From positions 4,529 through 68,528 of the forward strand of contig DCIX01000041.1 of NCBI GenBank assembly GCA_002317135.1: a stretch of DNA of 64,000 nucleotides, written 5' to 3'. The stretch is from Bacteroidales bacterium UBA1715 (GTDB taxonomy: Bacteria; Bacteroidota; Bacteroidia; Bacteroidales; UBA1715). Shown piece by piece: positions 5,879 through 16,677 of this stretch (positions are counted from its first letter, which is position 1; the number at the start of each line of letters is the position of its first letter). Made by a program: the position numbers and the translations under genes. The notes beneath the pieces are model-generated. The model saw only the letters and a list, made by a program, of their open reading frames with translations, made no database searches and was not told the DNA's origin.

Positions 5879-8800
5879 CTAACAATACCTCTTAAAATTC
5901 TCAGCCTGTTCTATCACTTTGTCATACACATCTTCAGGATGGTCCTCGGCTGGCGGATACTTATGTTTAGCCATAATCACGATTAAATCGAACTGCATTT
6001 CCGACATGATATCAGCACGCTTAAAGCAGTCGGTATAATGGGTTTTGTCGGCTATAATCGCTTTCATTTCCTTAGCAATCTCAATCATATTTTCATCTGG
6101 ATAATCAAAACCTCGTTCATCACGAACAGATTTTAGAATATCGAAAAATGCTTTTTCCTCATAATCTATACCAAGATCTTCATGAGACTTGCGTTCTTTG
6201 TCTAATTCCTCCATCATCTTCTTAATGTCGTCAACCACTTTTTTCATTACTTCAGTTACGTTGGCAACATCGTCGCTGCGGTCGTTATACGTGCGAATGA
6301 TTTCGTTTAAACGCTCGCCAAACACAATAGACTTGACTTTGTTCACTTTTCCGAATTCTGAAATCTGCTGTTTCACCAAGCGTTCCAACATGCGAAGTCT
6401 AATGTTTGGCAGATTTATCTTTTCTATACAATCGAGATGTTTCTTGTCGAAAATATCAAGGTCACCTTTTGTATCTTCCACTATCTTCACAACTTCTTCC
6501 ACACCGCTACTAACAAGAGCATCGGCTACTAATTTTCGAACACGTTCGTTCATCTCGGCTACATCGGGTGCATCGCCTTTGGTCATTTTGAATACAATGG
6601 AACGAACTGCGGTGAAGAACAACACTTTCTCTCTATGTATTTTATGCAAATTCTCGCTTGACGAACACATATTAAATGCCTGACGCATACGTTTCGCATG
6701 ACCCATAAACAAATTCTTACGTTCCTCTTCTTCCAATACAAAGTTTGCTCCTCCATTTAAGCATTGTAACTGTTTTAGAGCACTTTTTGCAAAGAAATCT
6801 TTATAATCGTACTTGTGCATAATGCCGTCGAGCACTTCGATTTCGTCTTTAACTATAGTAACAAGTTCGTCTATGCCTTCGGTTGGATCATCTCCACCAT
6901 CGCCTTTATCTGTACCATATTGTTTGAGGGCCTTGTTCATATTGCGTTTAATGCCGAGATAATCGACAACAAGACCTTTTTCTTTTCCCTCGCACACACG
7001 GTTTACACGACTGATGGTTTGAATAAGCGTATGTCGTTGCAATGGTTTGTCAACATACATAGTGTCGAGACTCGGAACATCGAAACCGGTGAGCCACATA
7101 TCAACAACTATCACTATTTTAAAGTTTGAATGTGGTTCTTTGAACTGACGTGCCCACTCTTGACGGTCGGCTTTATTGCCAAGCAATTTCGATAATTCCG
7201 GAACATCGTCTTTGTTGGTAGTCATCACCATTTTTACACGTTCCATTGGCAGAAGTTTGTCTTTTTCGTCTTCGGCAAGTTCAAACTCTGATGCACATGG
7301 TAGTTTCTTTGCCCATTCAGGACGAAGTGCTATGATATTTTTATATAAGTCGAAAGCTATTTCACGCGACGAACACACCACCATTGCTTTTCCGCACACG
7401 GTTGCTCCTTCGGCTATGCGTTGTTCGTAATGCGCAACAAGGTCTTCTGCAACTTTTTGCAAACGTTTTGGATCACCAATAATAGCATCCATCGTGGCAC
7501 TTTGCTGCTTGCTTTTGTTTATCTGTTCCTCGGTGCTTCCTGCATCCTCACATTCTTCATAATACTTGTCTATTGCTTCCAATTTTTCGTTGTCGGCAAA
7601 AACTTTGGCAGCACGACCTTCATAAACAATTCGCACAGTGATTCCATCGTTTACCGAATCGACCATAGTATATTTATCTACCACACCGCCAAACACGGCA
7701 ATGGTTTCGTCGATTGGTGTTCCTGTAAAACCGACATAGATTGCATTCGGCAACGAATTGTGCAGATATTGTGCAAAACCATACGTAGTTTTCATTGCGG
7801 TTGCCATACCATCTTTATCGAATGAAATCCGGGTTGATTCCTCCAAATTGGTTTGGGTACGATGTGCCTCGTCGCTTATGCAGATAATGTTTTTGCGATC
7901 GCTCAGCAGATTAATATCTTCCGAAAATTTCTGTATCGTGGTTAGAAACACGCCTCCACTTTTTCGACCGTTCAGTTTCTTGCGTAATTCTTCACGGCTG
8001 TCTATTTGTTCGATGGTTTCGTCGCCAATAAATTTTTTAGCACGGATAAACTGACTTGAAAGCTGGTCGTCGAGATCGGTTCTATCAGTTATAAGCAAAA
8101 TAGTCGGTGACTCCAGTTCGGTTGAACGCATCAACATTCTGCTCAAGAAAAGCATAGCCAAACTTTTACCACAACCTGTAGCGCCAAAATACGTTCCTCC
8201 TTTTCCATCGCCAATCTTATGATGTTCCAAAATGTTTTGGTACAACATAGTAGCAGCAAAATATTGCGGATAGCGGCATACTATCTTCTCTTCTTTGGTA
8301 CTTGAATCAGGGAAATAGATAAAGTTGCGCACAACTTCGAGCAAGCGTTCTTTGCGAAACAAACCGTGTACCATTGTAAAGAGGGAATCAAGTCCGTTAC
8401 TTGGCTTGTCCTCCGGTTCGATACGATTCCATGCATAGAAATATTCATATGGAGTAAACAACGAACCAAATTTATTTTGTGCTCCGTCGCTTATCACGAC
8501 AAATGCATTGTACCGGAACAAACTTGGAATATCTTTACGATACCGAACAGTGATTTGCGTAAAAGCATCTTTTATAGTACAATGTTCCTTTACAGCTGTT
8601 TTGAATTCCATCACCACCAACGGCAAACCGTTTACATACACAATAGCGTCAGGACGACGGTTACACACCTCAACAATCTCAACCTGATTCACAATTTTGA
8701 AATCGTTGTTTTGGGGATGGTCGAAATCTATCAATCGAATCCATAATGGTTCCTTCGTAGAGACGGTGTGCACACCGTCTCTACCATCATCCAAACCTGC

Positions 8801-9082
8801 GACCTCCCTACGCAACGGGAAACCCTCGACAATCATCTGCATTACACGGCGGTTTTCGTCGTATAGATTTTGCGACTGTTGTGCCTTGAGCATAAGGATT
8901 ACCTGCTGAATTTCTTCCTCGGTTATATCAGCATAGTGTGCACGCAAATAAGCCTCTATATCCTCAACAAGAAGAACCTCGGCCAAGTTTTTATGTAACT
9001 GTTCACCTAATTTATGTGTATAGTGCTCTTCGTCTCTGAAGAGCTCCATTATTGCATTTTCAAGTGTGGATTCGTTAAACAT
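5879..9082 (-). CDS. hsdR: type I restriction endonuclease subunit R (system 1)
   Basis: 1067 aa. N-terminal PD-(D/E)xK-like DAIVYVNGLPLVVMEFK, Walker A GATGCGKS, DEAH box ICISDEAHRTQ. Carries an in-frame REP-encoded RDGVHTVST at residues 101-109. Confidence 0.93.
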   Translation of the reverse strand: MFNESTLENAIMELFRDEEHYTHKLGEQLHKNLAEVLLVEDIEAYLRAHYADITEEEIQQVILMLKAQQSQNLYDENRRVMQMIVEGFPLRREVAGLDDGRDGVHTVSTKEPLWIRLIDFDHPQNNDFKIVNQVEIVEVCNRRPDAIVYVNGLPLVVMEFKTAVKEHCTIKDAFTQITVRYRKDIPSLFRYNAFVVISDGAQNKFGSLFTPYEYFYAWNRIEPEDKPSNGLDSLFTMVHGLFRKERLLEVVRNFIYFPDSSTKEEKIVCRYPQYFAATMLYQNILEHHKIGDGKGGTYFGATGCGKSLAMLFLSRMLMRSTELESPTILLITDRTDLDDQLSSQFIRAKKFIGDETIEQIDSREELRKKLNGRKSGGVFLTTIQKFSEDINLLSDRKNIICISDEAHRTQTNLEESTRISFDKDGMATAMKTTYGFAQYLHNSLPNAIYVGFTGTPIDETIAVFGGVVDKYTMVDSVNDGITVRIVYEGRAAKVFADNEKLEAIDKYYEECEDAGSTEEQINKSKQQSATMDAIIGDPKRLQKVAEDLVAHYEQRIAEGATVCGKAMVVCSSREIAFDLYKNIIALRPEWAKKLPCASEFELAEDEKDKLLPMERVKMVMTTNKDDVPELSKLLGNKADRQEWARQFKEPHSNFKIVIVVDMWLTGFDVPSLDTMYVDKPLQRHTLIQTISRVNRVCEGKEKGLVVDYLGIKRNMNKALKQYGTDKGDGGDDPTEGIDELVTIVKDEIEVLDGIMHKYDYKDFFAKSALKQLQCLNGGANFVLEEEERKNLFMGHAKRMRQAFNMCSSSENLHKIHREKVLFFTAVRSIVFKMTKGDAPDVAEMNERVRKLVADALVSSGVEEVVKIVEDTKGDLDIFDKKHLDCIEKINLPNIRLRMLERLVKQQISEFGKVNKVKSIVFGERLNEIIRTYNDRSDDVANVTEVMKKVVDDIKKMMEELDKERKSHEDLGIDYEEKAFFDILKSVRDERGFDYPDENMIEIAKEMKAIIADKTHYTDCFKRADIMSEMQFDLIVIMAKHKYPPAEDHPEDVYDKVIEQAENFKRYC
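8757..8784. repeat. REP copy 4, inside the hsdR coding sequence (in frame)
   Basis: Exact palindrome. The offset from the hsdR ATG is 298 nt, so it is read as G-RDGVHTVST. Confidence 0.95.
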
Positions 9083-9148: not shown

Positions 9149-9176
9149 GTAGAGACGGTGTGCACACCGTCTCTAC
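9149..9176. repeat. REP copy 5, overlaps the RAYT stop codon
   Basis: Exact palindrome. The minus-strand GTAG supplies the TAG stop (9175-9173) of the RAYT ORF. Confidence 0.95.
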
Positions 9177-9811
9177 AGACGATATTCATCCAATTGCCAT
9201 TGTGCAACATTATTTTCGATATATGTGGCAATACGATTCAATTCATCCTGATTACGAACAATATGGTCGTGAAACCGTGGTTGCCAGGCGAATGGAATAT
9301 TGTTGGTATTGGCAAAATGGGTAATGGCACGTTTCAAACCACCGATAACAACAGACAATTGGCCCTTGTATTTAGAAATGTTTTGCATTTGTTCGTTCAC
9401 GACATCCGATTTCCATCGTTCATCCGTAGAGACGGTGTGCACACCGTCTCTACACGTACCGCCATCGTTTTCGTTTACCATATTGAATACCCCATCAATA
9501 ACAACAATTGCATGAATATGGTTGGGCATTACCACAAACAATGGTATTTCGGCGTACGGATAATGCGATTGTACGTTTACAAATTGTTTGTGGGCGTATT
9601 GACCAATTGGGGATAATTGCATCTGTGATTCAGGTATTACCATTCCCGTAGAGACGGTGTGCACACCGTCTCTACAATCGGTTGTTATTTCCCCGAAATA
9701 ATGTTCACGATTTTTGGTGCATATCGTTATAAAATATACGCCGCCGTTGTATCCGTGCCACGGCGCACGTGCCGATGATACACGGTATTTGTTTTGAAAT
9801 TTTTCTGCCAT
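9173..9811 (-). CDS. REP-associated tyrosine transposase (RAYT; IS200/IS605 Y1 HUH family)
   Basis: FQNKYRVSSARAPWHGYNGGVYFITICTKNREHYFGEI N-terminus, HUH motif MPNHIHAIVVI (H98/H100), C-terminal RFHDHIVRNQDELNRIATYIENN with candidate catalytic Tyr197. Two in-frame REP insertions encode CRDGVHTVST at residues 46-55 and 120-129. Confidence 0.85.
   Translation of the reverse strand: MAEKFQNKYRVSSARAPWHGYNGGVYFITICTKNREHYFGEITTDCRDGVHTVSTGMVIPESQMQLSPIGQYAHKQFVNVQSHYPYAEIPLFVVMPNHIHAIVVIDGVFNMVNENDGGTCRDGVHTVSTDERWKSDVVNEQMQNISKYKGQLSVVIGGLKRAITHFANTNNIPFAWQPRFHDHIVRNQDELNRIATYIENNVAQWQLDEYRL
9426..9453. repeat. REP copy 6, in frame inside RAYT
   Basis: Exact palindrome, read as C-RDGVHTVST (residues 120-129). 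Confidence 0.95.
9648..9675. repeat. REP copy 7, in frame inside RAYT
   Basis: Exact palindrome, read as C-RDGVHTVST (residues 46-55). Confidence 0.95.
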
Positions 9812-9979: not shown

Positions 9980-10145
9980 AATGCGGTGCAAATGGTTACG
10001 AAATATATTCCCCCATTATAATTATGCCAATTGGCACGGGCCGACGGTACGCGATATGTATTTTTGAATGTATCCATTGTTTCGTTTATTTTATTGTTAA
10101 CACATTGTGCGATTTGCCATGACCGTTATCGTTTTCCAGCCCCCC

Positions 10146-10336: not shown

Positions 10337-11848
10337 TTATATCTTTAGGTAATCCATAAATAAAGAATCTATACTCCATGAATCTGGGACCAATACTTTT
10401 TCATCTGGTTGAATTTGCATATTCTTACATATGGTTATATACTGCTTTGGTATATGAAACCATTGGTAAATTTTATTCTGTAGTTCTTTAAATGATATCC
10501 TTTCGCAATCATTATATGATGGTGTTACCTCCAATAATTTTTTACCTTCTTTCGATATACTACTCATTGCGATAATCTCTTCTTCTTCATTGAGCCAATT
10601 TTTAATTTTCGTTTTCTTAAAAACAAAATCCAGTGGTATAGCAACAGGATTAAACTTAGGTACAAAAAGTAAATAATTAGAAAACGGTTTCAAAACTTCA
10701 TTGATAAAGTCAAAAGACATTTTGTATTTTTCATTTTCAGACAAAGAGCATATTTGTTCTAAATAAAACGCCTTTAAACCCGACATTCCACGAAAAGTAG
10801 AATCATGATTAAAAAACATTTCAAACAAAATACCATTCAATAGATGATTTTCTTTATCAATTATCCAGTTATTCAAAAATCTCTCTAATTTACACTGTGA
10901 ATTGAATATTTCGCCAATCGTTCTTTCGCCTCCCACTGCCACTTGCAAAATGTTTCTTCCTAAAAGAAACTGTTCATTCCTATCTGGAAAATCTGTAGGT
11001 GTTTTATCAAGTATTACTTTGATAGCTGGTTCTTGAGTATACCAATTACAAGACTTCAAACTATATATGATTTCCGAGAAATCGCTCCCATTATTTGTAT
11101 ACAAAATGTCTTTGACAACATTCTCTTTATAAGGAATAGTTTTAGAAACATTTATATTACTACCATTATTAAAGCAATATTTTCCAATTAAAGATGTATG
11201 TTCCCATGACAGCTGTTTTTCATTAGTCAAACTATACACAGACTCTCTAACTCTTTTGAAACAATCTTCAATAGTGATATTCGGAACTCCAATATGCGTC
11301 AATAAAGCCTGTGTATATATACTATTTTCTCCAGGAATTCCATCCGTGGCAGTTTCTCCCGGAGATGTCGAAAAGGCAATTAAAGAACCTTTAGGAGCAT
11401 ATATTGGCGCCAATCCATTAGACACAACACTTCTATTACCTTTAAAAGGATTATCTCTACATGCATCTAGCACAAATATTTTTACCCTTACATTAACTTG
11501 ACAGATATCTTTTATTATTTCGTCAAATGATATAGCAGTGTATTTCGCAGAAGATTCATCTTCAACCGAAGCATCTATTGGCAATAAATAATTTTTACCA
11601 TCTACTTGTATTCCATGTCCAGAATAAAAGAATAAAGAAACAACATCTTCCTCTGTTGATGTAATTTTACTCTTATATTCAGATATTATCTTGCTGAATT
11701 CAGATTGCTTGAAATCTGTAGATAACAATACGTCAAATCCTAAATTCTCCAACTTTGATTTGATATCTTGCGCATCTTTAACCGCATTGTTAAGTTTTGT
11801 TGTACATTCATAATTGTTATTGCCAATAACAAGAGCATAAGACCTCAT
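10337..11848 (-). CDS. caspase-fold (peptidase C14) protease with uncharacterised ~270-aa C-terminal domain
   Basis: N-terminal ~230 aa start YALVIGNNNY and carry the catalytic His in FFYSGHGIQ (H78) and catalytic Cys in FVLDACRDNPF (C130). I recognise no motif in the C-terminal half. The gene starts 15 nt after the hsdS stop on the same strand and is markedly AT-rich. Confidence 0.85.
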   Translation of the reverse strand: MRSYALVIGNNNYECTTKLNNAVKDAQDIKSKLENLGFDVLLSTDFKQSEFSKIISEYKSKITSTEEDVVSLFFYSGHGIQVDGKNYLLPIDASVEDESSAKYTAISFDEIIKDICQVNVRVKIFVLDACRDNPFKGNRSVVSNGLAPIYAPKGSLIAFSTSPGETATDGIPGENSIYTQALLTHIGVPNITIEDCFKRVRESVYSLTNEKQLSWEHTSLIGKYCFNNGSNINVSKTIPYKENVVKDILYTNNGSDFSEIIYSLKSCNWYTQEPAIKVILDKTPTDFPDRNEQFLLGRNILQVAVGGERTIGEIFNSQCKLERFLNNWIIDKENHLLNGILFEMFFNHDSTFRGMSGLKAFYLEQICSLSENEKYKMSFDFINEVLKPFSNYLLFVPKFNPVAIPLDFVFKKTKIKNWLNEEEEIIAMSSISKEGKKLLEVTPSYNDCERISFKELQNKIYQWFHIPKQYITICKNMQIQPDEKVLVPDSWSIDSLFMDYLKI

Positions 11849-11863: not shown

Positions 11864-13021
11864 TTACCCCGCCATCACCAACGATAGCAGTTCTGTTAAT
11901 TTATTAATTTCGTTATCTAATATTTTTATATCTTCATCGATGATTTTTGCTTTTGACTCAAAGTCAACGACTAATTTTTCATCTGGAATAACTACAGACA
12001 ATCCAAACAAATCATCTTTCGTTATGCTTCCAAAAACAGTTCCATCTTCATTTGAAACATTGAAATCGTGTTCTTTGGTTTGCAATAGATAATAAATGAA
12101 AGAGTTGCAACCGATTTTGCTACGCAATGCCGCTAAACCTCTACCAATGCAACAATCATGCGGTGCAATGTTCAAATCACCAACAGGAGCACGAACACTC
12201 AACAAGACATCTCCTAATTTAGCTATTCTTGTTGGTGCTGTTGTGTACATACGAATACTAGGGAATCTGTAACCATAATCAGTTCGCCCTTGATAGAAAA
12301 TCATTCCTTCGCTTTTTTCATTGTATGTTGAACCATCCGGAGATTGTCCCATCGTTATCTCTGCCACTTCTCCCAGTGTTCCCATTCTCCACCCTTCCGG
12401 CAGATTCTCCACATCCACATCATCCACAAACATTTTTCTATATAATGCTTGAGCGGCCTCTTCGAGTTTGGCTATGGTTTGTTTGTTGGTGGCAATGCGG
12501 TTTTGAATGGATTGGTAACGCAACACAATGCGGCGCTGTTCTTCGATGGAGGGAACGGGCAACTGTACATTACACATTTCTTCCCAATCAAAAACCTCAC
12601 GAGCACTGCCGTGCGAATGAAAACGTGCATAACGATCAAATTCTGCACGACGAAACCACATCATCAGATATTCTGGTAATAATTGTAGAGACGGTGTGCA
12701 CACCGTCTCTACGGAATCACACATATCTACAATTTCAAACACAACGTATGCCTGCGAAATAATGGCAGGTTCATCGCCTGTATATAATGCAACGGTTATC
12801 TTTTCACCATTACGTGATGTTACTGGTACATAAGCGAATTGGTTATGCTTTACAATCTTGTATGGGCGAAGATCTGTTCCAACCATATTGGCTATGGAAG
12901 GAATAAAAACTTTAGCATTGCTTAATCCCAAAAGATTGGTGCATCGCAAATCACTATTCCTCACGTCCACTTCACGGATATAATCCCCCAGACGTTTATA
13001 TGTAGAGTTGTTGTTTGTCAT
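11864..13021 (-). CDS. hsdS: type I R-M specificity subunit S, two TRDs (system 1)
   Basis: Two target-recognition halves separated by the conserved PSIEEQRRIVLRYQSIQNRIATNKQTIAKLEEAAQALYRKMF region. The preferred start MTNNNSTYKRLGDYI is at 13021; the alternative ORF-track start at 13057 overlaps hsdM. Contains the in-frame REP peptide VETVCTPSL. Confidence 0.88.
   Translation of the reverse strand: MTNNNSTYKRLGDYIREVDVRNSDLRCTNLLGLSNAKVFIPSIANMVGTDLRPYKIVKHNQFAYVPVTSRNGEKITVALYTGDEPAIISQAYVVFEIVDMCDSVETVCTPSLQLLPEYLMMWFRRAEFDRYARFHSHGSAREVFDWEEMCNVQLPVPSIEEQRRIVLRYQSIQNRIATNKQTIAKLEEAAQALYRKMFVDDVDVENLPEGWRMGTLGEVAEITMGQSPDGSTYNEKSEGMIFYQGRTDYGYRFPSIRMYTTAPTRIAKLGDVLLSVRAPVGDLNIAPHDCCIGRGLAALRSKIGCNSFIYYLLQTKEHDFNVSNEDGTVFGSITKDDLFGLSVVIPDEKLVVDFESKAKIIDEDIKILDNEINKLTELLSLVMAG
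12685..12712. repeat. REP copy 11, in frame inside hsdS (alternative reading frame)
   Basis: Exact palindrome. The offset of 345 nt from 13057 means it is read GTA GAG ACG..., giving VETVCTPSL. Confidence 0.95.
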
Positions 13022-13031
13022 CGCAAAGAAA

Positions 13032-14606
13032 TTACAATTTATACCCCAATTCCTCAAACACTTTCTTCACGGCCTTTTTGCTTTCTTCCTCTTGGGCAAA
13101 AAGTTCACGTAATTCTGTTTGAAGTCTGCTCATTGTTTCTTCGTAGCCGGCGTAATCGTCGCGGTTCACAAACTCAATGTATTTGCTTGGCACAAGCGAA
13201 CTATCTTTCAAATCGGTTGTCTTTACTGATTTGCAGAATTCTGGCACATCGGTGTATTCGCCCAAATCGGTGCGTTGCCATTGGTGGAACTTCTTGGCTG
13301 CGTTTGTAATATCGTCCGTGCTGAATGTGGTATATTTCTTTTCGAATGGTTCGCCCCATGTACGTAAATCCATAAACAGTATCTCGTTTGCACGCTCACG
13401 GTATTGGCGTTGCTCGCCGTTTACCGTTGTTGTACGGGCATGTTTGTTACGGTTTAGTATCCACAACGTTACCGAAATGTCGGTAGTATAGAACATATTT
13501 CGTGGAAGAATCACAATAGCCTCCACTGCATCGTGTTCTTCAATCAAAGCCTTACGAATTGCTTTTTCGTCACCATCGCCACTCAATGCGCCATTGGCAA
13601 GCAAAAAGCCGGCAATACCATCGGTAGAAAGCTTTGAGAAAATATTGAGTATCCACGCATAGTTGGCATTGCTTGTAGGTGGTACGGCAAAACCTTTCCA
13701 ACGAGGATCGTCGAGCAGTTCGCTTGATTCGCGCCAATCTTTTTGGTTAAAAGGAGGATTTGCCATAATGTAGTCGAACTTCTCTCCTTTATGCTGATCG
13801 TTTTGGAAAGTACTGGCAGCTTTTTCTCCCAAATTGGCCGAAATACCACGAATGGCAAGGTTCATCTTCGCCAGCTTATAGGTTGTGAGCGTGAACTCTT
13901 GTCCGTAAACCGAAATATCGCGTTTGTTTCCGTTGTGGTTTTCAATAAAACGGCTACTTTGCACAAACATACCACCAGAACCACAGGCAGGATCGTACAC
14001 TTTCCCTTTATACGGTTCTATCATTTCGGCAATGAGATTTACAATAGCCTTAGGCGTATAGTATTCTCCCTTACCCTTACCTTCCTGCAAAGCGAAGTTC
14101 GAAAGACAGTATTCATACACACGGCCAAAGAAATCATTATCTTCGTCCATGTGTTTTTCCATATCGTTCACTACATCGAGCAACGAGCCCAATTTAGCGG
14201 CATCTATACCCAGACTGCTATAATAGTTCGAAGGCAATGCGCCCGCAAGTTGTTTATTGTCTTTTTCTATATCGGCAAGCGCTTTGTCTATAATCTGCGC
14301 AATATTTGGCTGCTTAGCGTTTTGCATAATATAGTTCCAACGACAATGTTCCTGCAAATAGAATACATTATCCTTGCCGTAGGAAACAGGCATTTCGCAG
14401 AGCATATTGCCTCCACCAAATTGTTCTTCAAGTTTTTGGTATTGTTTTTCGAAACGAACACCTGCGTATTTCAAGAAAATCAAACTCAATACAACATGCT
14501 TGTATTCAGATGCTTCTATATTTCCACGTAGTTTATTAGCCGCATCCCATAGTTGTGCTTCAATGGATTTTTCAGTTTTTTTTGCTGTAGTGCTTTTTTT
14601 CGCCAT
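13032..14606 (-). CDS. hsdM: type I R-M DNA methyltransferase subunit M (system 1)
   Basis: N-terminal HsdM domain (LWDAANKLRGNIEASEYKHVVLSLIFLKY), SAM motif I DPACGSGGMF, catalytic motif IV ANPPFN. Confidence 0.95.
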   Translation of the reverse strand: MAKKSTTAKKTEKSIEAQLWDAANKLRGNIEASEYKHVVLSLIFLKYAGVRFEKQYQKLEEQFGGGNMLCEMPVSYGKDNVFYLQEHCRWNYIMQNAKQPNIAQIIDKALADIEKDNKQLAGALPSNYYSSLGIDAAKLGSLLDVVNDMEKHMDEDNDFFGRVYEYCLSNFALQEGKGKGEYYTPKAIVNLIAEMIEPYKGKVYDPACGSGGMFVQSSRFIENHNGNKRDISVYGQEFTLTTYKLAKMNLAIRGISANLGEKAASTFQNDQHKGEKFDYIMANPPFNQKDWRESSELLDDPRWKGFAVPPTSNANYAWILNIFSKLSTDGIAGFLLANGALSGDGDEKAIRKALIEEHDAVEAIVILPRNMFYTTDISVTLWILNRNKHARTTTVNGEQRQYRERANEILFMDLRTWGEPFEKKYTTFSTDDITNAAKKFHQWQRTDLGEYTDVPEFCKSVKTTDLKDSSLVPSKYIEFVNRDDYAGYEETMSRLQTELRELFAQEEESKKAVKKVFEELGYKL

Positions 14607-14734
14607 TTATATCAAATTTATAGTGGTTAAATATACGAAAGAAAACAACACCAAATGAGAAAAAACAGGGAACAGTTATTAACAAATAACAATAGTTATG
14701 ATATAACTACGAAACCATTTGCTTTGTTGTTAAG

Positions 14735-14777
14735 AAATAGATAATTCTTGCTAATTTTGCAATAATTAGCAAGAATT
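14735..14777. promoter_or_regulatory. 43-bp element, copy 1, with 14-bp-arm palindrome AATTCTTGCTAATT-N7-AATTAGCAAGAATT (between Fic and hsdM)
   Basis: aaatagataattcttgctaattttgcaataattagcaagaatt. Arms are at 14743-14756 and 14764-14777. It overlaps the Fic stop codon and lies ~130 bp upstream of the hsdM ATG. The near-identical copy is at 16103-16145. Confidence 0.6.
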
Positions 14778-16080
14778 ATTTTATTTTTATTTTATTTTCA
14801 AAATGTTCGCTTTTAAGGTATCCACGTTTTACCTTATTGATAGCCACCTCGTTAAGATATTTTTTCTCAACCAAATCCGTCAAATCTCTTCTTGCAGTCA
14901 TTTGTGTTATCATAAATCTGTCCATTACATCCTTAACGGTGATAACAGATTCAGGATTTTTTTGAAAATGATGAATAATCTGAGCCTGACGCTCGTTTAT
15001 ACCACCAATCATAATAAAGCTGTTTGCGGCCTCTTTTTCTTTTTGTTTCCTTTCAATATAGTTCTTGAGTTGCTCAAACGAGATTTTCAATGTTCTTAAG
15101 TTGTACGATACAAAATAGCTTACATCAAGTCCGTCGTTCTCAACATAGAGAAACGATTTTTCGTATGTTACTTTTGAACCAGAAATGATTCTGGAAATAG
15201 ACATATATTCCGTCAACCAATATTTCTCTTTAAGCATGTACCAATAAAACAAAGCCCTGGCAGTACGGCCGTTTCCGTCTATGAATGGGTGCATGTACGC
15301 TATCATAAAATGGACTATGATTCCACAAATGATAGGATGAATAAACACTTGCCCATTACCTTCGTTAAAAAACACACATAAATCATCCAAAAACTGTGGT
15401 AGTTCGCTGGCTGGAGGCGGCGTGTGAACCACTTCGTGGGTTATCTTGTTTTCTACAACCACGTCGTCATCTGCGGTTCTAAGTCTTCCTGCATCGTTGG
15501 CGTTCTCCAGCGTCTTTTCCGTCATTAGCCGATGAATGTAAAGAAGATTCTCTTTTGTGAGAGGTTCGTCTTTATGCTCCGTAATATATTGAATCGTCCG
15601 ATAGTTGTTCACTATCATTTGCTGTGATTTATCCTTTGGAGCAATGTTCTTTCTTAGCATTTCTTTTGCAACCATGCGTGTGGTTGAAGCACCTTCCATT
15701 TTGCTGGAATAGATAGCTTCCTCCATGAGCGAACTTGCCAGATAATGCATTTTCTCTTTCCCAGATTCTTCGTTTGATTCCCAAAAAGAACCGAACATCA
15801 TGTCGAACTCGTGACACAACTTCTGCATTTGGTTTGTTACGCACAGTGTCATGCCATATCTCTTCCACGCAGGTATGGCGTTTTTCATACGGTTTATTTT
15901 AACGTATGTCCACAAGTCCTCTGCCGAAACACCAGGCACTTGACCAGCCTTGTACTTTACCTTGTCCCAATAATCGTACGTTTCGTTTATCTTGTTTACA
16001 AGTGCATCAATGTTGACATCTGTTTTTTCAAACAGCGCCTTCCGCATTATTTTGTCGTTAAGTTTTGGAGCGTTTTCCAT
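14776..16080 (-). CDS. Fic-family protein (AMPylase-type) with C-terminal winged-helix domain
   Basis: Canonical Fic motif HPFIDGNGRTARAL. Upstream inhibitory-helix-like motif SSKMEG matches (S/T)xxxE(G/N). C-terminal wHTH-like segment ITVKDVMDRFMITQMTARRDLTDLVEKKYL. Confidence 0.9.
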   Translation of the reverse strand: MENAPKLNDKIMRKALFEKTDVNIDALVNKINETYDYWDKVKYKAGQVPGVSAEDLWTYVKINRMKNAIPAWKRYGMTLCVTNQMQKLCHEFDMMFGSFWESNEESGKEKMHYLASSLMEEAIYSSKMEGASTTRMVAKEMLRKNIAPKDKSQQMIVNNYRTIQYITEHKDEPLTKENLLYIHRLMTEKTLENANDAGRLRTADDDVVVENKITHEVVHTPPPASELPQFLDDLCVFFNEGNGQVFIHPIICGIIVHFMIAYMHPFIDGNGRTARALFYWYMLKEKYWLTEYMSISRIISGSKVTYEKSFLYVENDGLDVSYFVSYNLRTLKISFEQLKNYIERKQKEKEAANSFIMIGGINERQAQIIHHFQKNPESVITVKDVMDRFMITQMTARRDLTDLVEKKYLNEVAINKVKRGYLKSEHFENKIKIK

Positions 16081-16102
16081 AGCCGATTCTTTTCAATCGT
16101 AA

Positions 16103-16145
16103 AAATAGATAATTCTTGCTAATTTAGCAACAATTAGCAAGAATT
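16103..16145. promoter_or_regulatory. 43-bp element, copy 2, with the same 14-bp-arm palindrome, upstream of Fic
   Basis: aaatagataattcttgctaatttagcaacaattagcaagaatt. It differs from copy 1 at 2 positions, both in the 7-bp spacer. It lies 23-65 bp upstream of the Fic ATG. Confidence 0.6.
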
Positions 16146-16217
16146 TTACAGTTTATACAACAACGCCTTACAATGTCAAAAAACTGACATTTTCCCAAAA
16201 GTTAATCGAATACAGGT

Positions 16218-16667
16218 TTATATCTTCCCGTCCTCTTTCAGCATATCGTACAATTTGCCGGCTGTTTCGGCCAAAACCTTGGTGCAAATCATTTGATGAT
16301 GTTGGCGTTTTTCTACCGCCTCGCGTGTGGCAAATTTCTGTAGTAATTCTCCACAAGATGTTGTTCCATACACTTCTATAAGTGATTTATTGAGTTCGCG
16401 AACTTTTCGGTAGGCAAGCAATTTATTGTCCATATCTTTGGGATCGATTGGAGAATATGCCAAACCCATAACCATAAAACTACCTGTTACTGCCCCACAT
16501 TTTTCACGCAAGCGTCCCATTCCGCCACCGAATGTAGCCGACAACAAACTTGCACTTCGTTCATCTACTTGAAACGCTGGTCCAAATGCCAATAAAATTG
16601 ATTGAGAACAAGCGTAACCTTCCGAAAATAAAGACAAAACTTTATCTATTGCTTCCTGACGAGTCAT
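16218..16667 (-). CDS. C_GCAxxG_C_C family protein
   Basis: GYACSQSILLAF, FGGGMG...KCGAVTG and TTSCGELL cysteine pattern typical of the family. Confidence 0.75.
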   Translation of the reverse strand: MTRQEAIDKVLSLFSEGYACSQSILLAFGPAFQVDERSASLLSATFGGGMGRLREKCGAVTGSFMVMGLAYSPIDPKDMDNKLLAYRKVRELNKSLIEVYGTTSCGELLQKFATREAVEKRQHHQMICTKVLAETAGKLYDMLKEDGKI

Positions 16668-16677
16668 AATTCACTGT

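What the first reader, a model, noticed from the sequence alone, without database searches (positions are those of the whole stretch)
14735..16145. Fic gene bracketed by two copies of a 43-bp element with a perfect 14-bp-arm palindrome: shared operator for Fic and hsdM, or an excisable cassette
Seen in sequence: aaatagataattcttgctaattNNgcaaNaattagcaagaatt occurs at 14735-14777 and again at 16103-16145. The first copy overlaps the Fic stop and lies ~130 bp upstream of the hsdM ATG. The second lies 23-65 bp upstream of the Fic ATG. The two copies differ at only 2 positions, both in the 7-bp spacer. The arms AATTCTTGCTAATT / AATTAGCAAGAATT are perfect in both copies. The Fic protein has the canonical HPFIDGNGRTARAL active site, an SSKMEG inhibitory-helix motif, and a C-terminal winged-helix-like domain. 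Inference (a): the palindrome is an operator, possibly bound by the Fic wHTH domain itself. That would place Fic and the methylase/specificity genes under one regulator, analogous to C-proteins of type II R-M systems. Inference (b): the 1.37-kb Fic segment is bounded by direct repeats, so homologous recombination could delete it precisely and leave one copy in front of hsdM.
Basis: partly seen in the sequence, partly recalled or inferred. Interest (0 to 1): 0.6.

Follow-up and report, generated by a model that had tools for sequence, protein, structure and literature searches.

The report
Repeated operator-like palindrome bracketing a Fic defence gene
A toxin-type (SoFic-like) anti-phage gene next to a type I restriction system is flanked by two copies of a conserved palindrome that is most likely the binding site through which the protein represses itself. 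A related genome has lost exactly the segment between the two copies.

Summary
A 43-bp repeat lies at 14735-14777 and 16103-16145, with perfect 14-bp arms and two differences in the 7-bp spacer. There are no other copies in 64 kb.

It is not a genome-wide repeat. In 185,579 species genomes the core occurs 9 times, and 7 of these are at Bacteroidales Fic/type I R-M loci. The same palindrome precedes Fic homologues of 61-100% identity, and its core precedes one of 37%. Synonymous sites are saturated, yet the arms stay 23-28/28 identical. It sits directly upstream of a Bacteroidetes -7 box, and its central TTG is placed as the -33 element.

The protein is a SoFic-type class II Fic with a C-terminal winged helix. 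CccR and SoFic are reported to bind their own promoters. A sister Fic clade has a different recognition helix (TAK instead of TAR) and a palindrome with two compensated arm changes.

A 3' copy brackets Fic in several lineages, including non-R-M contexts, so it is not an hsdM operator. hsdM has its own -7 box 14 nt before its ATG. One relative (hsdM 99% identical) lacks exactly the 1368-bp unit and keeps one copy.

Best reading: an autoregulatory operator, duplicated at the 3' end, making Fic precisely deletable. Binding is inferred, not shown.

The parts
16103..16145 (-). 5' copy of the 43-bp repeat. The 35-bp palindrome proper is 16111-16145 (14-7-14), and it is the proposed Fic operator overlapping the Fic promoter. 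The spacer reads GTTGCTA on the coding strand, and its GTTG (16131-16128) is the candidate -33 element.
   Evidence: Conserved upstream of Fic homologues. Promoter geometry.
16100..16107 (-). Predicted Bacteroidetes-type -7 box of Fic, TATTTTTA (7/8 of TAnnTTTG). It lies 3 nt after the palindrome, 27 nt before the ATG and 20 nt after the central TTG.
   Evidence: Homologues have a perfect box (TATCTTTG, or TACTTTTG in L009) at the equivalent place, 23-35 nt before the ATG.
14776..16080 (-). Fic gene, 434 aa. A SoFic-type class II Fic with the SSKMEG inhibitory motif, the HPFIDGNGRTAR active site and a C-terminal DeoR-type winged helix whose recognition helix is MTARRDL (residues 394-400).
14735..14777 (-). 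3' copy of the 43-bp repeat (palindrome 14743-14777). It overlaps the Fic stop codon and is in direct orientation with the 5' copy. Proposed as a second operator and/or hairpin. It is one partner in the precise deletion seen in L013/L041.
   Evidence: Deletion variant.
14613..14620 (-). Predicted own -7 box of hsdM, TAAATTTG (perfect TAnnTTTG), 14 nt before the hsdM ATG and about 115 nt downstream of the 3' palindrome.
   Evidence: The same sequence is present in the Fic1a-less relative L013.
13032..14606 (-). hsdM (type I R-M methylase), the gene downstream of the Fic unit. Context only, not shown to be regulated by the palindrome.

Best explanation
The palindrome is the cognate operator of the Fic protein's own C-terminal winged-helix domain. 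The gene encodes a SoFic-type, class II Fic (AMPylating toxin / abortive-infection protein). Its 5' palindrome covers the -33 region and promoter spacer of the Fic promoter, so a Fic dimer bound there would repress its own transcription, as shown experimentally for CccR. A second copy in direct orientation sits at the stop codon. This bracket recurs in several Fic lineages and contexts, so it belongs to the Fic unit and not to hsdM. It may act as an auxiliary operator (loop or roadblock) or as a 3' hairpin. A side effect is that the two 43-bp direct repeats allow precise loss of the 1368-bp unit, leaving one orphan copy in front of hsdM. Shown here: the sequence, its conservation, its position relative to the predicted promoter, its restriction to Fic/R-M loci, and the natural deletion variant. 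Inferred: protein binding, repression, and the role of the 3' copy.
For: (1) Specificity of location. The core occurs in only 9 stretches of 185,579 species genomes, 7 of them at Bacteroidales Fic/type I R-M loci. A strict scan of IMG/VR gave 0 hits and a looser one gave 1. The window has 2 copies against 0 expected. (2) Purifying selection on the sequence. In Fic homologues of 62-78% identity, four-fold-like sites are 27-39% identical (saturated), while the arms are 23-28/28 identical. The core also lies upstream of a Fic of 37% identity in a non-R-M context (L032). (3) Promoter overlap. In homologues a perfect TAnnTTTG box follows the palindrome, 23-35 nt before the ATG. In the window clade the central TTG is 20 nt upstream of the box, which matches Bacteroidetes -33/-7 geometry. 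L047 has a perfect TTTG-20 nt-TATATTTG with the right arm as the promoter spacer. (4) Some 5' sites keep TTGC/half-site arrays while breaking the hairpin (L008, L039; 10-12 of 14 pairs). Uncompensated single-arm changes outnumber compensated ones within the type. This fits half-site recognition on duplex DNA better than a required hairpin. (5) Co-variation. The Fic1a clade and L032 have recognition helix TAR(R/K/T)DL and arms ..CTTGCTAATT. The Fic1b clade (L041, L042, L044-49, L047) has TAK(T/N/S)DI and arms ..CTTTCCAATT. The two palindrome types differ by two compensated pairs: position 8 G:C to T:A, and position 10 T:A to C:G. (6) Family membership and precedent. PADLOC SoFic E=2.9e-43. The model matches SoFic, Coxiella Fic2 and 7xux. 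CccR is a Fic+HTH dimer that represses its own promoter through an inverted repeat at -35/-10 (PMC9755527). SoFic dimers bind the 100 bp upstream of their own gene (bioRxiv 10.64898/2026.07.09.737422). (7) Deletion. L013/L041 (hsdM 99% identical) has GCAxxG-palindrome-hsdM and lacks exactly one repeat unit. Its left flank and spacer match copy 2, and its right flank matches copy 1.
Against: No binding or expression data exist for this protein. The TAR/TAK co-variation amounts to one evolutionary switch, and TARRDL-like strings are partly a DeoR-fold signature. The pal2-type palindrome is abundant in viral contigs (at least 120 stretches, 4 of them next to Fic) with no Fic winged-helix homologue nearby, so that palindrome type is recognised or used by something other than Fic. 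Two solo pal sites lie away from any Fic or hsdM (L024, L025). The window's own -7 box is imperfect (TATTTTTA). In some clades the palindrome lies 14-30 nt further from the -7 box. The role of the 3' copy is unexplained by simple autorepression. The two copies within one locus share idiosyncrasies (L034 50/50, L016 38/38), which points to duplication or gene conversion rather than independent selection. The deletion variant rests on one MAG contig.
Confidence: 0.6

Rival explanations
1. Shared regulator. Fic bound at the 3' copy controls hsdM/hsdS, so that Fic and the methylase form one regulon, analogous to C-proteins of type II R-M systems.
For: The 3' copy lies between Fic and hsdM. In some relatives palindromes sit in hsdM-Fic or Fic-hsdS intergenic regions. 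A solo copy persists upstream of hsdM in L013/L041.
Against: hsdM has a perfect -7 box 14 nt before its ATG, about 115 nt downstream of the palindrome, and this box is conserved in the Fic1a-less relative. The -7-equivalent of the 3' copy is poor (TATTTCTT). 3' copies occur where no R-M gene follows: L034 is between an Rv0495c-like gene and an ABC transporter gene, L003-8 are before a Y1 transposase, and L044-49 are viral contigs. Many Fic-in-operon loci have no 3' copy at all (L010, L023, L039, L040).
Confidence: 0.1
2. Recombination site. The 14-7-14 palindrome is a lox/attC-like core site, and pal-Fic-pal is a cassette inserted and excised by a site-specific recombinase.
For: The architecture resembles tyrosine-recombinase core sites. 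The copies are in direct orientation. A precise presence/absence variant exists. The Fic unit occurs in at least 6 different contexts, and homology between L015 and L016 starts at the palindrome's left edge. Orphan palindromes lie in R-M operons (L014, L027). pal2-like sites are single-copy in many viral contigs, next to an excisionase-type HTH_17 gene.
Against: No recombinase gene is inside the unit or among the nine called ORFs scanned between 5.9 and 20 kb; the short ORFs between 19.9 and 20 kb and the unhit ORF 9173-9811 were not resolved, and the rest of the window was not annotated. The only protein encoded within the bracket is Fic, yet the palindrome type follows the Fic clade. No pal-X-pal with other cargo was found in any scan. 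The window's two spacers differ at 2 of 7 positions, which would hinder strand exchange. The other 'empty' sites are not clean site-by-site products. 43-bp repeats suffice for RecA-dependent or slippage deletion.
Confidence: 0.12
3. Structural hairpin. The copies act as RNA (or DNA) stem-loops, as intrinsic terminators or insulators after the GCAxxG gene and after Fic. They would be sequence-identical only because of duplication.
For: Both copies score as terminator-like on the coding strand, with tails ATCTATTTTT and ATCTATTTCTT. The stems fold at about -19 kcal/mol, z = -3.7 to -5.9. Each copy lies just after an upstream stop codon. The pal to pal2 change preserves pairing.
Against: The T-tract is not conserved at homologous 3' copies (L016, L015, L008, L034). 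The primary sequence of the arms is conserved far beyond what a stem requires. Some promoter-proximal copies break the stem. In L027 the palindrome sits inside an hsdM-hsdS operon junction, where termination would silence hsdS. No Rfam family matches. Viral pal2 copies lack T-tails (11 of 192 tails).
Confidence: 0.15

Closest known systems
CccR of Yersinia pseudotuberculosis (Fic + C-terminal HTH toxin/transcription factor; PMC9755527)
   Same: A class II Fic with an N-terminal SxxxEG inhibitory motif and a C-terminal HTH. It is a dimer. It represses its own gene by binding an inverted repeat that overlaps the -35/-10 region. The model here matches the 7xux and 8cil-type folds.
   Different: The CccR operator is AGATAATCAT-N26-ATGATAATCT and is present once. 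Here the site is 14-7-14 (core centres about 20 bp apart) and is repeated at the 3' end of the gene. CccR is a T6SS-linked effector, whereas this gene sits in a type I R-M island. Binding is shown for CccR and only inferred here.
SoFic (SO_4266) and the SoFic single-gene anti-phage defence system
   Same: The PADLOC SoFic profile is matched at E=2.9e-43 over residues 83-423, and SoFic is the best structural match. SoFic dimers bind the 100 bp upstream of their own start codon. That fragment contains repeated ATGTCGAT half-sites in direct and inverted orientation (my reading of the paper's Table S2), comparable to the TTGC half-site arrays here.
   Different: About 19% identity. There is an extra N-terminal region of about 70 aa. 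The operator sequence is different. No flanking direct repeat has been reported for SoFic. The small downstream antitoxin AS1 reported for an E. coli Sofic (PMC12249575) has no counterpart in the 129-nt Fic-hsdM spacer (my reading: the only ATG there is followed by a stop after two codons).
C-protein control of type II R-M systems
   Same: A DNA-binding protein with a palindromic site, encoded next to R-M genes.
   Different: C-boxes sit at the promoter of the C/R operon and time restriction. Here the second site is not at the hsdM promoter, the bracket also occurs without R-M genes, and the protein is a toxin-type Fic rather than a dedicated small regulator.
Accessory abortive-infection genes embedded in type I R-M operons (e.g. 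the prrC anticodon nuclease in the EcoprrI locus; from general knowledge)
   Same: A toxic second-line defence gene housed in an hsd locus. Relatives carry Fic, RhuM, YhcG/DUF1016, caspase-like, reverse transcriptase or NACHT genes in the same slots.
   Different: No evidence here for protein-level masking by the R-M complex. The Fic unit has its own promoter and operator and is bracketed by repeats.

Membership tests
SoFic-type class II Fic protein | Fic active-site motif HxFx(D/E)GNGRxxR | tested here: met
   HPFIDGNGRTAR in the translation. Pfam Fic E=8.9e-16.
SoFic-type class II Fic protein | Intramolecular inhibitory helix (S/T)xxxE(G/N) N-terminal to the Fic core | tested here: met
   SSKMEG at residues 125-130. 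S125, S126, E129 and G130 are invariant in 31 homologues.
SoFic-type class II Fic protein | [quoted passage not shown] | tested here: met
   HTH_DeoR E=9.5e-7. The model has H363-374, H382-389, H393-405 and two strands. Foldseek top hits are SoFic 3zcn/3eqx, 4rgl, 8cil and 7xux, at E 6.1e-11 to 4.2e-9. PADLOC SoFic E=2.9e-43.
SoFic-type class II Fic protein | Anti-phage (abortive infection) activity, AMPylation, dimerisation | not testable with these tools
   Requires experiments.
CccR/SoFic-type autoregulation | Inverted repeat within its own promoter, overlapping the core promoter elements | tested here: met
   The palindrome ends 3 nt before the predicted -7 box, and its central TTG is at -33 spacing. 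The promoter is predicted, not mapped.
CccR/SoFic-type autoregulation | The wHTH domain binds the repeat and represses transcription | not testable with these tools
   Indirect support only: conservation and co-variation of helix and site.
C-protein-like control of R-M genes | Operator located at the promoter of the regulated R-M gene(s) | tested here: not met
   The best hsdM -7 box is at 14613-14620, about 115 nt downstream of the 3' copy. 3' copies also occur in non-R-M contexts.
Site-specific recombination cassette (lox / attC / dif-module type) | A cognate recombinase encoded in or next to the unit | tested here: not met
   Pfam scan of nine called ORFs between 5.9 and 20 kb found none; the short ORFs between 19.9 and 20 kb were not scanned, ORF 9173-9811 had no hit, and the rest of the window was not annotated. 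Fic is the only ORF inside the bracket. Y1 (RAYT) genes nearby go with a different, GTAG-headed repeat.
Site-specific recombination cassette (lox / attC / dif-module type) | The same sites flank different cargo genes | tested here: not met
   All two-copy loci found carry Fic1a between the copies.
Site-specific recombination cassette (lox / attC / dif-module type) | Identical crossover spacer in both partner sites | tested here: inconclusive
   The window spacers differ at 2 of 7 positions. L011 and L016 have identical spacers.
Intrinsic terminator | Stable stem-loop followed by a conserved U-tract at the 3' end of a transcription unit | tested here: inconclusive
   The window copies pass the simple scan and fold well. 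The T-tract is absent at homologous copies.
REP / RAYT repeat | Many dispersed copies per genome, GTAG head | tested here: not met
   There are two copies in 64 kb and 1-2 per matched genome stretch. A genuine GTAG-headed REP family with 13 copies is present in the same window for comparison.

The most novel reading that the evidence does not exclude
The Fic winged helix recognises a palindrome that is also conserved in Bacteroidales phage genomes. pal2-type sites occur once each in at least 120 viral contigs, and a pal site lies in a phage-like lysis module (L025). Incoming phage DNA would then titrate the Fic repressor off its own operator, or otherwise engage the wHTH, and so switch on the abortive-infection toxin. 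On this reading the flanking operator copies form a decoy-sensing circuit rather than plain autoregulation.
Probability: 0.05. Interest if true: 0.8.

Novelty: new variant of a known kind. Interest (0 to 1): 0.4.

Why it matters
SoFic-type Fic proteins are a recently recognised single-gene anti-phage defence. How their toxicity is kept silent is only beginning to be studied; autorepression is shown for CccR, and promoter binding for SoFic. This locus and its relatives give three things. First, a sharply defined candidate operator (14-7-14, core CTTGCTAATT). Second, a natural specificity pair (TAR/TTGCT versus TAK/TTTCC) that can be tested directly by swapping one residue and two base pairs. 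Third, an architecture not reported in the three papers consulted here (PMC9755527, PMC12249575, bioRxiv 10.64898/2026.07.09.737422), with the operator repeated at the 3' end, which makes a toxic defence gene precisely deletable. It also documents rapid turnover of accessory defence genes in the slots of Bacteroidales type I R-M operons. If binding is not confirmed, what remains is an ordinary duplicated intergenic palindrome with one documented deletion.

Tried and rejected
There are 2 copies in the window, 9 stretches in 185,579 species genomes and 0-1 in IMG/VR. (2) Known RNA family: no match better than E = 0.26 in Rfam. (3) REP/RAYT element: rejected. The window's true REP family is a different, GTAG-headed palindrome. 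(4) IS200/IS605-type peel-and-paste mobilisation: considered because Y1 transposase genes lie near some Fic loci. It would remove both hairpins, whereas the empty site keeps one. (5) A second clean presence/absence pair: L014 vs L017+L012 and L027 vs L023 do differ by the presence of Fic1a. Their junctions are not simple palindrome-by-palindrome products. L014 keeps the palindrome plus the Fic -7 box, and L027 has the palindrome, 25 nt, then hsdS. (6) 'L013 is Fic-less': corrected. The longer fetch (L041) shows a different Fic (53% identity) between hsdM and hsdS, bracketed by pal2. (7) pal2 as a Fic1b-specific site: not exclusive, since it is abundant in viral contigs without Fic. (8) A stand-alone homologue of the Fic wHTH next to viral or solo palindromes: none found. 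(9) Other half-site clusters in the window that would suggest a regulon: none. (10) Assembly collapse as the origin of L013: cannot be excluded without reads. It is unlikely, because identity does not jump sharply at the repeat (0.87-0.97 to its left, 0.97-1.0 to its right).
Full report
OBSERVATION. The region was read directly. The 43-bp sequence AAATAGATAATTCTTGCTAATT-N7-AATTAGCAAGAATT occurs at 14735-14777 and at 16103-16145. Both copies have perfect 14-bp arms and differ only at two spacer positions. A search allowing three mismatches finds just these two sites in 64 kb, against zero in shuffled controls. The repeat finder lists them as a two-copy direct repeat spaced 1368 bp apart. All genes here are on the minus strand. 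In order they are: a GCAxxG-family gene (16218-16667), Fic (14776-16080), hsdM (13032-14606), hsdS (11864-13057), a caspase-like gene (10337-11848), a repeat-rich stretch, and hsdR (5879-9082). The Fic stop codon overlaps the downstream copy, which ends 129 nt before the hsdM ATG. The upstream copy lies 23-65 nt before the Fic ATG. The protein has the HPFIDGNGRTAR motif, the SSKMEG inhibitory motif and a DeoR-type HTH.

WHAT THE PROTEIN IS. The Fic protein matches the PADLOC SoFic profile (E=2.9e-43, residues 83-423). An AlphaFold model built on 31 homologues (pLDDT 81) ends in a three-helix, two-strand winged helix, and the third helix is MTARRDL. Foldseek against the PDB returns SoFic (3zcn, 3eqx), Dde_2494, Coxiella Fic2 (8cil) and 7xux as best hits over about 350-375 columns. 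The literature gives direct precedent. CccR is a class II Fic with a C-terminal HTH. It dimerises and represses its own promoter by binding an inverted repeat at the -35/-10 boxes (PMC9755527). SoFic dimers bind specifically to the 100 bp upstream of their own gene (bioRxiv 10.64898/2026.07.09.737422). That fragment carries several ATGTCGAT half-sites, by my reading of the paper's Table S2.

DISTRIBUTION OF THE PALINDROME. A scan of one genome per species (185,579 species) for TCTTGCTAAT-N9-ATTAGCAAGA found nine stretches. Seven are in Bacteroidales MAGs, and all seven lie at Fic and/or type I R-M loci. The same pattern is absent from IMG/VR, and a looser one has a single hit there. A metagenome scan with a 21-base core found 13 stretches. 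Contigs fetched through Fic homologues of 71-78% identity carry the same palindrome. It is therefore not a genome-wide repeat. It travels with this Fic family.

POSITION AND SELECTION. I lined up the upstream regions of 16 Fic loci, 11 of which are scored. The palindrome, or an array of its TTGC half-sites at about 10-bp phasing, is followed by a perfect Bacteroidetes -7 box: TAnnTTTG, usually TATCTTTG, 23-35 nt before the ATG. In the window the box at the equivalent place is TATTTTTA (16107-16100), 3 nt after the palindrome, and the central GTTG lies 20 nt upstream, the spacing expected of a -33 element. In L047 the geometry is textbook: TTTG, 20 nt, TATATTTG, with the right arm forming the promoter spacer. 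Between the window and homologues of 62-78% identity, four-fold-like codon positions are only 27-39% identical, whereas the arms are 23-28/28 identical. The core TTGCTAATT-N7-AATTAGCAA also precedes a Fic of 37% identity in a non-R-M neighbourhood (L032). In some promoter-proximal sites the stem is broken while the half-sites persist (L008, L039). Within the type, uncompensated single-arm changes outnumber compensated ones. This pattern fits recognition of duplex half-sites better than a required hairpin.

CO-VARIATION WITH THE RECOGNITION HELIX. Members of the hsdM 90% cluster led to loci with a sister Fic clade, Fic1b, which is about 53-58% identical to the window protein. These are L041 and L042 and, from IMG/VR, L044-L049. 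These genes are preceded, and often followed, by a related palindrome, pal2, with arms AATTCTTTCCAATT / AATTGGAAAGAATT. pal2 differs from pal by two compensated pairs: position 8 G:C to T:A, and position 10 T:A to C:G. Their recognition helix reads TTAK(T/N/S)DI. All pal-associated proteins, including the 37% relative, read TAR(R/K/T)DL. The loss of a guanine in the half-site together with Arg-to-Lys in the helix is what a specificity switch would look like. It amounts to one evolutionary event, so the evidence is suggestive rather than statistical. The spacer keeps a TTGCAA-like centre in both types, which fits a promoter (-33) role independent of the arms.

THE SECOND COPY. Direct repeats that bracket Fic are not peculiar to the window. 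They occur in L011 (43 nt, 42 identical), L016 (38/38), L015, L017+L012, L008 (42 nt, 35 identical) and L034 (50/50, between unrelated housekeeping-type genes). With pal2 they occur in L041 and in the viral-contig group L044-49. Other loci have no 3' copy, and there Fic abuts the next gene of the operon (L010, L023, L039, L040). The 3' copy therefore belongs to the Fic unit and not to whatever lies downstream. hsdM has its own perfect -7 box (TAAATTTG, 14620-14613) 14 nt before its ATG, and this box is retained in the relative that lacks Fic1a. The -7-equivalent after the 3' copy is poor. I conclude that the C-protein-like reading is not supported. The function of the 3' copy is open: it could be an auxiliary operator for looping or roadblock, a hairpin at the transcript end, or no function at all. 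The two copies within a locus share idiosyncratic details, which indicates duplication or gene conversion.

PRECISE LOSS. L013 is a horse-faeces MAG contig. Its hsdM is 99% identical to the window's, while its chromosomal left flank is only about 77% identical. It has one palindrome between the GCAxxG gene and hsdM. Its left flank and spacer (GTTGCTA) are those of the window's upstream copy, and its right flank is that of the downstream copy. A three-way alignment with L011 (Fic present) shows a gap of exactly one repeat unit. The longer fetch of the same contig (L041) shows that this genome is not Fic-free. A Fic1b gene, bracketed by pal2, lies between hsdM and hsdS, where the window has only 10 nt. 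Other orphan palindromes exist but are not clean repeat-by-repeat products: L014 has hsdM-pal-Fic2, L027/L029 have hsdM-pal-hsdS, and pal2 lies before hsdS or Fic2 in L009, L012 and L016. The picture is one of frequent gain and loss of Fic units in the slots of these R-M operons. Relatives carry RhuM, YhcG, reverse transcriptase, NACHT or caspase-like genes in those slots. Since an operator has no reason to pre-exist without its gene, deletion of Fic1a is the more parsimonious direction. The mechanism (RecA, slippage or a recombinase) cannot be told from sequence.

RIVALS. A site-specific recombination site is suggested by the lox-like 14-7-14 layout, the direct orientation, the precise variant and the many contexts. 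Several observations count against it. No recombinase is found in or beside the unit. No other cargo is ever found between two copies. The palindrome type follows the Fic clade, although Fic is the only encoded protein. The window's spacers differ at two positions. A terminator or insulator hairpin is suggested by the simple scan and by folding. The T-tract is not conserved, however, the arm sequence is conserved far beyond what pairing requires, and in L027 a terminator would cut an operon. These functions are not mutually exclusive with an operator.

CAVEAT. The pal2 core (TTCTTTCCA-N13-TGGAAAGAA) is abundant in IMG/VR. The arms are conserved and the spacers are highly variable. There is no adjacent -7 box or T-tail. 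The commonest neighbour is an excisionase-type HTH_17 gene that ends 26 nt upstream (40 loci). No homologue of the Fic winged helix is nearby. A pal site also occurs in a phage-like lysis module (L025). Something other than Fic therefore uses this palindrome family in phages. This weakens the exclusivity of the pal2-Fic1b link. It leaves two possibilities open: that Fic units derive from phages, or, more speculatively, that the Fic winged helix senses a phage-conserved site.

VERDICT. The best-supported explanation (confidence about 0.6) is a CccR/SoFic-type autoregulatory operator overlapping the Fic promoter. It is duplicated at the 3' end of the gene, and this has allowed a precise natural deletion. 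The shared Fic/hsdM operator idea is not supported. Relative to what is known this is a new variant of a known kind. The value lies in a defined motif, a testable specificity pair and the bracket architecture. Interest is moderate (0.4).

Noticed in passing
window 5430, 5546, 5840, 8755, 9149, 9426, 9648, 9952, 10146, 10199, 12685, 39968 (28-bp cores); a thirteenth copy is listed; also L012, L015, L016, L017: A GTAG-headed perfect palindrome, GTAGAGACGGTGTGCACACCGTCTCTAC, forms a REP-type family of 13 copies in the window. One variant has compensated inner-stem changes (GTAGAGACGCGATTAATCGCGTCTCTAC). The family is shared with related MAGs.
   Followed up: partly
window 12685-12712 (hsdS), 8755-8786 (hsdR), 9426-9453 and 9648-9675 (ORF 9173-9811): Four REP copies lie in frame inside protein-coding ORFs. 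In hsdS the copy adds about 11 aa (..DSVETVCTPSLQ..) that are absent from a 48%-identical homologue. In hsdR and in ORF 9173-9811 the copies encode ..RDGVHTVST... This recalls the Rickettsia palindromic elements that insert into genes.
   Followed up: partly
window 9173-9811 (-) and ~9985-10076 (-): The 212-aa ORF has no Pfam hit. It reads like a RAYT / IS200-type Y1 (HUH) transposase (..YFITICT....PNHIHAIVV..), interrupted by two in-frame REPs. A truncated second N-terminus lies just upstream. It is the likely partner of the REP family. The identification is my own reading and has not been confirmed.
   Followed up: partly
window 10337-11848 (-): A caspase-like (Peptidase_C14, E=1.7e-38) 503-aa gene sits between hsdS and hsdR, with a weak PADLOC 'caspase' hit. 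It looks like another accessory defence-type gene embedded in the type I R-M island.
   Followed up: no
L041 4600-4640 and 5945-5985; L042 1185-1225; L009 1597-1631; L012 147; L016 2863; L044-L049: A second palindrome type, pal2 (AATTCTTTCCAATT-N7-AATTGGAAAGAATT), brackets a sister Fic clade (Fic1b, recognition helix TTAKxDI). It also occurs as orphan copies before hsdS or Fic2 in other R-M operons.
   Followed up: yes
L052-L171 (IMG/VR viral contigs): pal2-like palindromes are present once each in at least 120 viral contigs, with conserved arms and very variable spacers. They are usually 26 nt after an excisionase-type HTH_17 gene and near lysis-type genes, and only 4 are next to Fic. What binds them or what they do is unknown.
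   Followed up: partly
L025 2700-2760; L024 1410-1450: Solo copies of the window-type palindrome occur away from any Fic or hsdM. One lies in a phage-like lysis module (amidase, spanin-like protein, then the palindrome with extra TTGC half-sites, then a DUF1064 gene). The other lies in an unrelated intergenic region.
   Followed up: partly
window ~16200-16670 vs L011, L013: Identity between the three related genomes is mosaic across the GCAxxG gene (0.73-1.0 in 60-nt windows). It is about 77-86% in the chromosomal flank but 97-100% in Fic/hsdM. This suggests recent horizontal exchange or recombination of the hsd island between species.
   Followed up: partly
L041, L042, L043 vs window 13021-13034: hsdM genes of one 90% cluster occur in four different operon layouts: Fic1a upstream; Fic1b between hsdM and hsdS; Fic1b upstream with YhcG downstream; and YhcG only. 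The window has only 10 nt between hsdM and hsdS, with no palindrome scar.
   Followed up: yes
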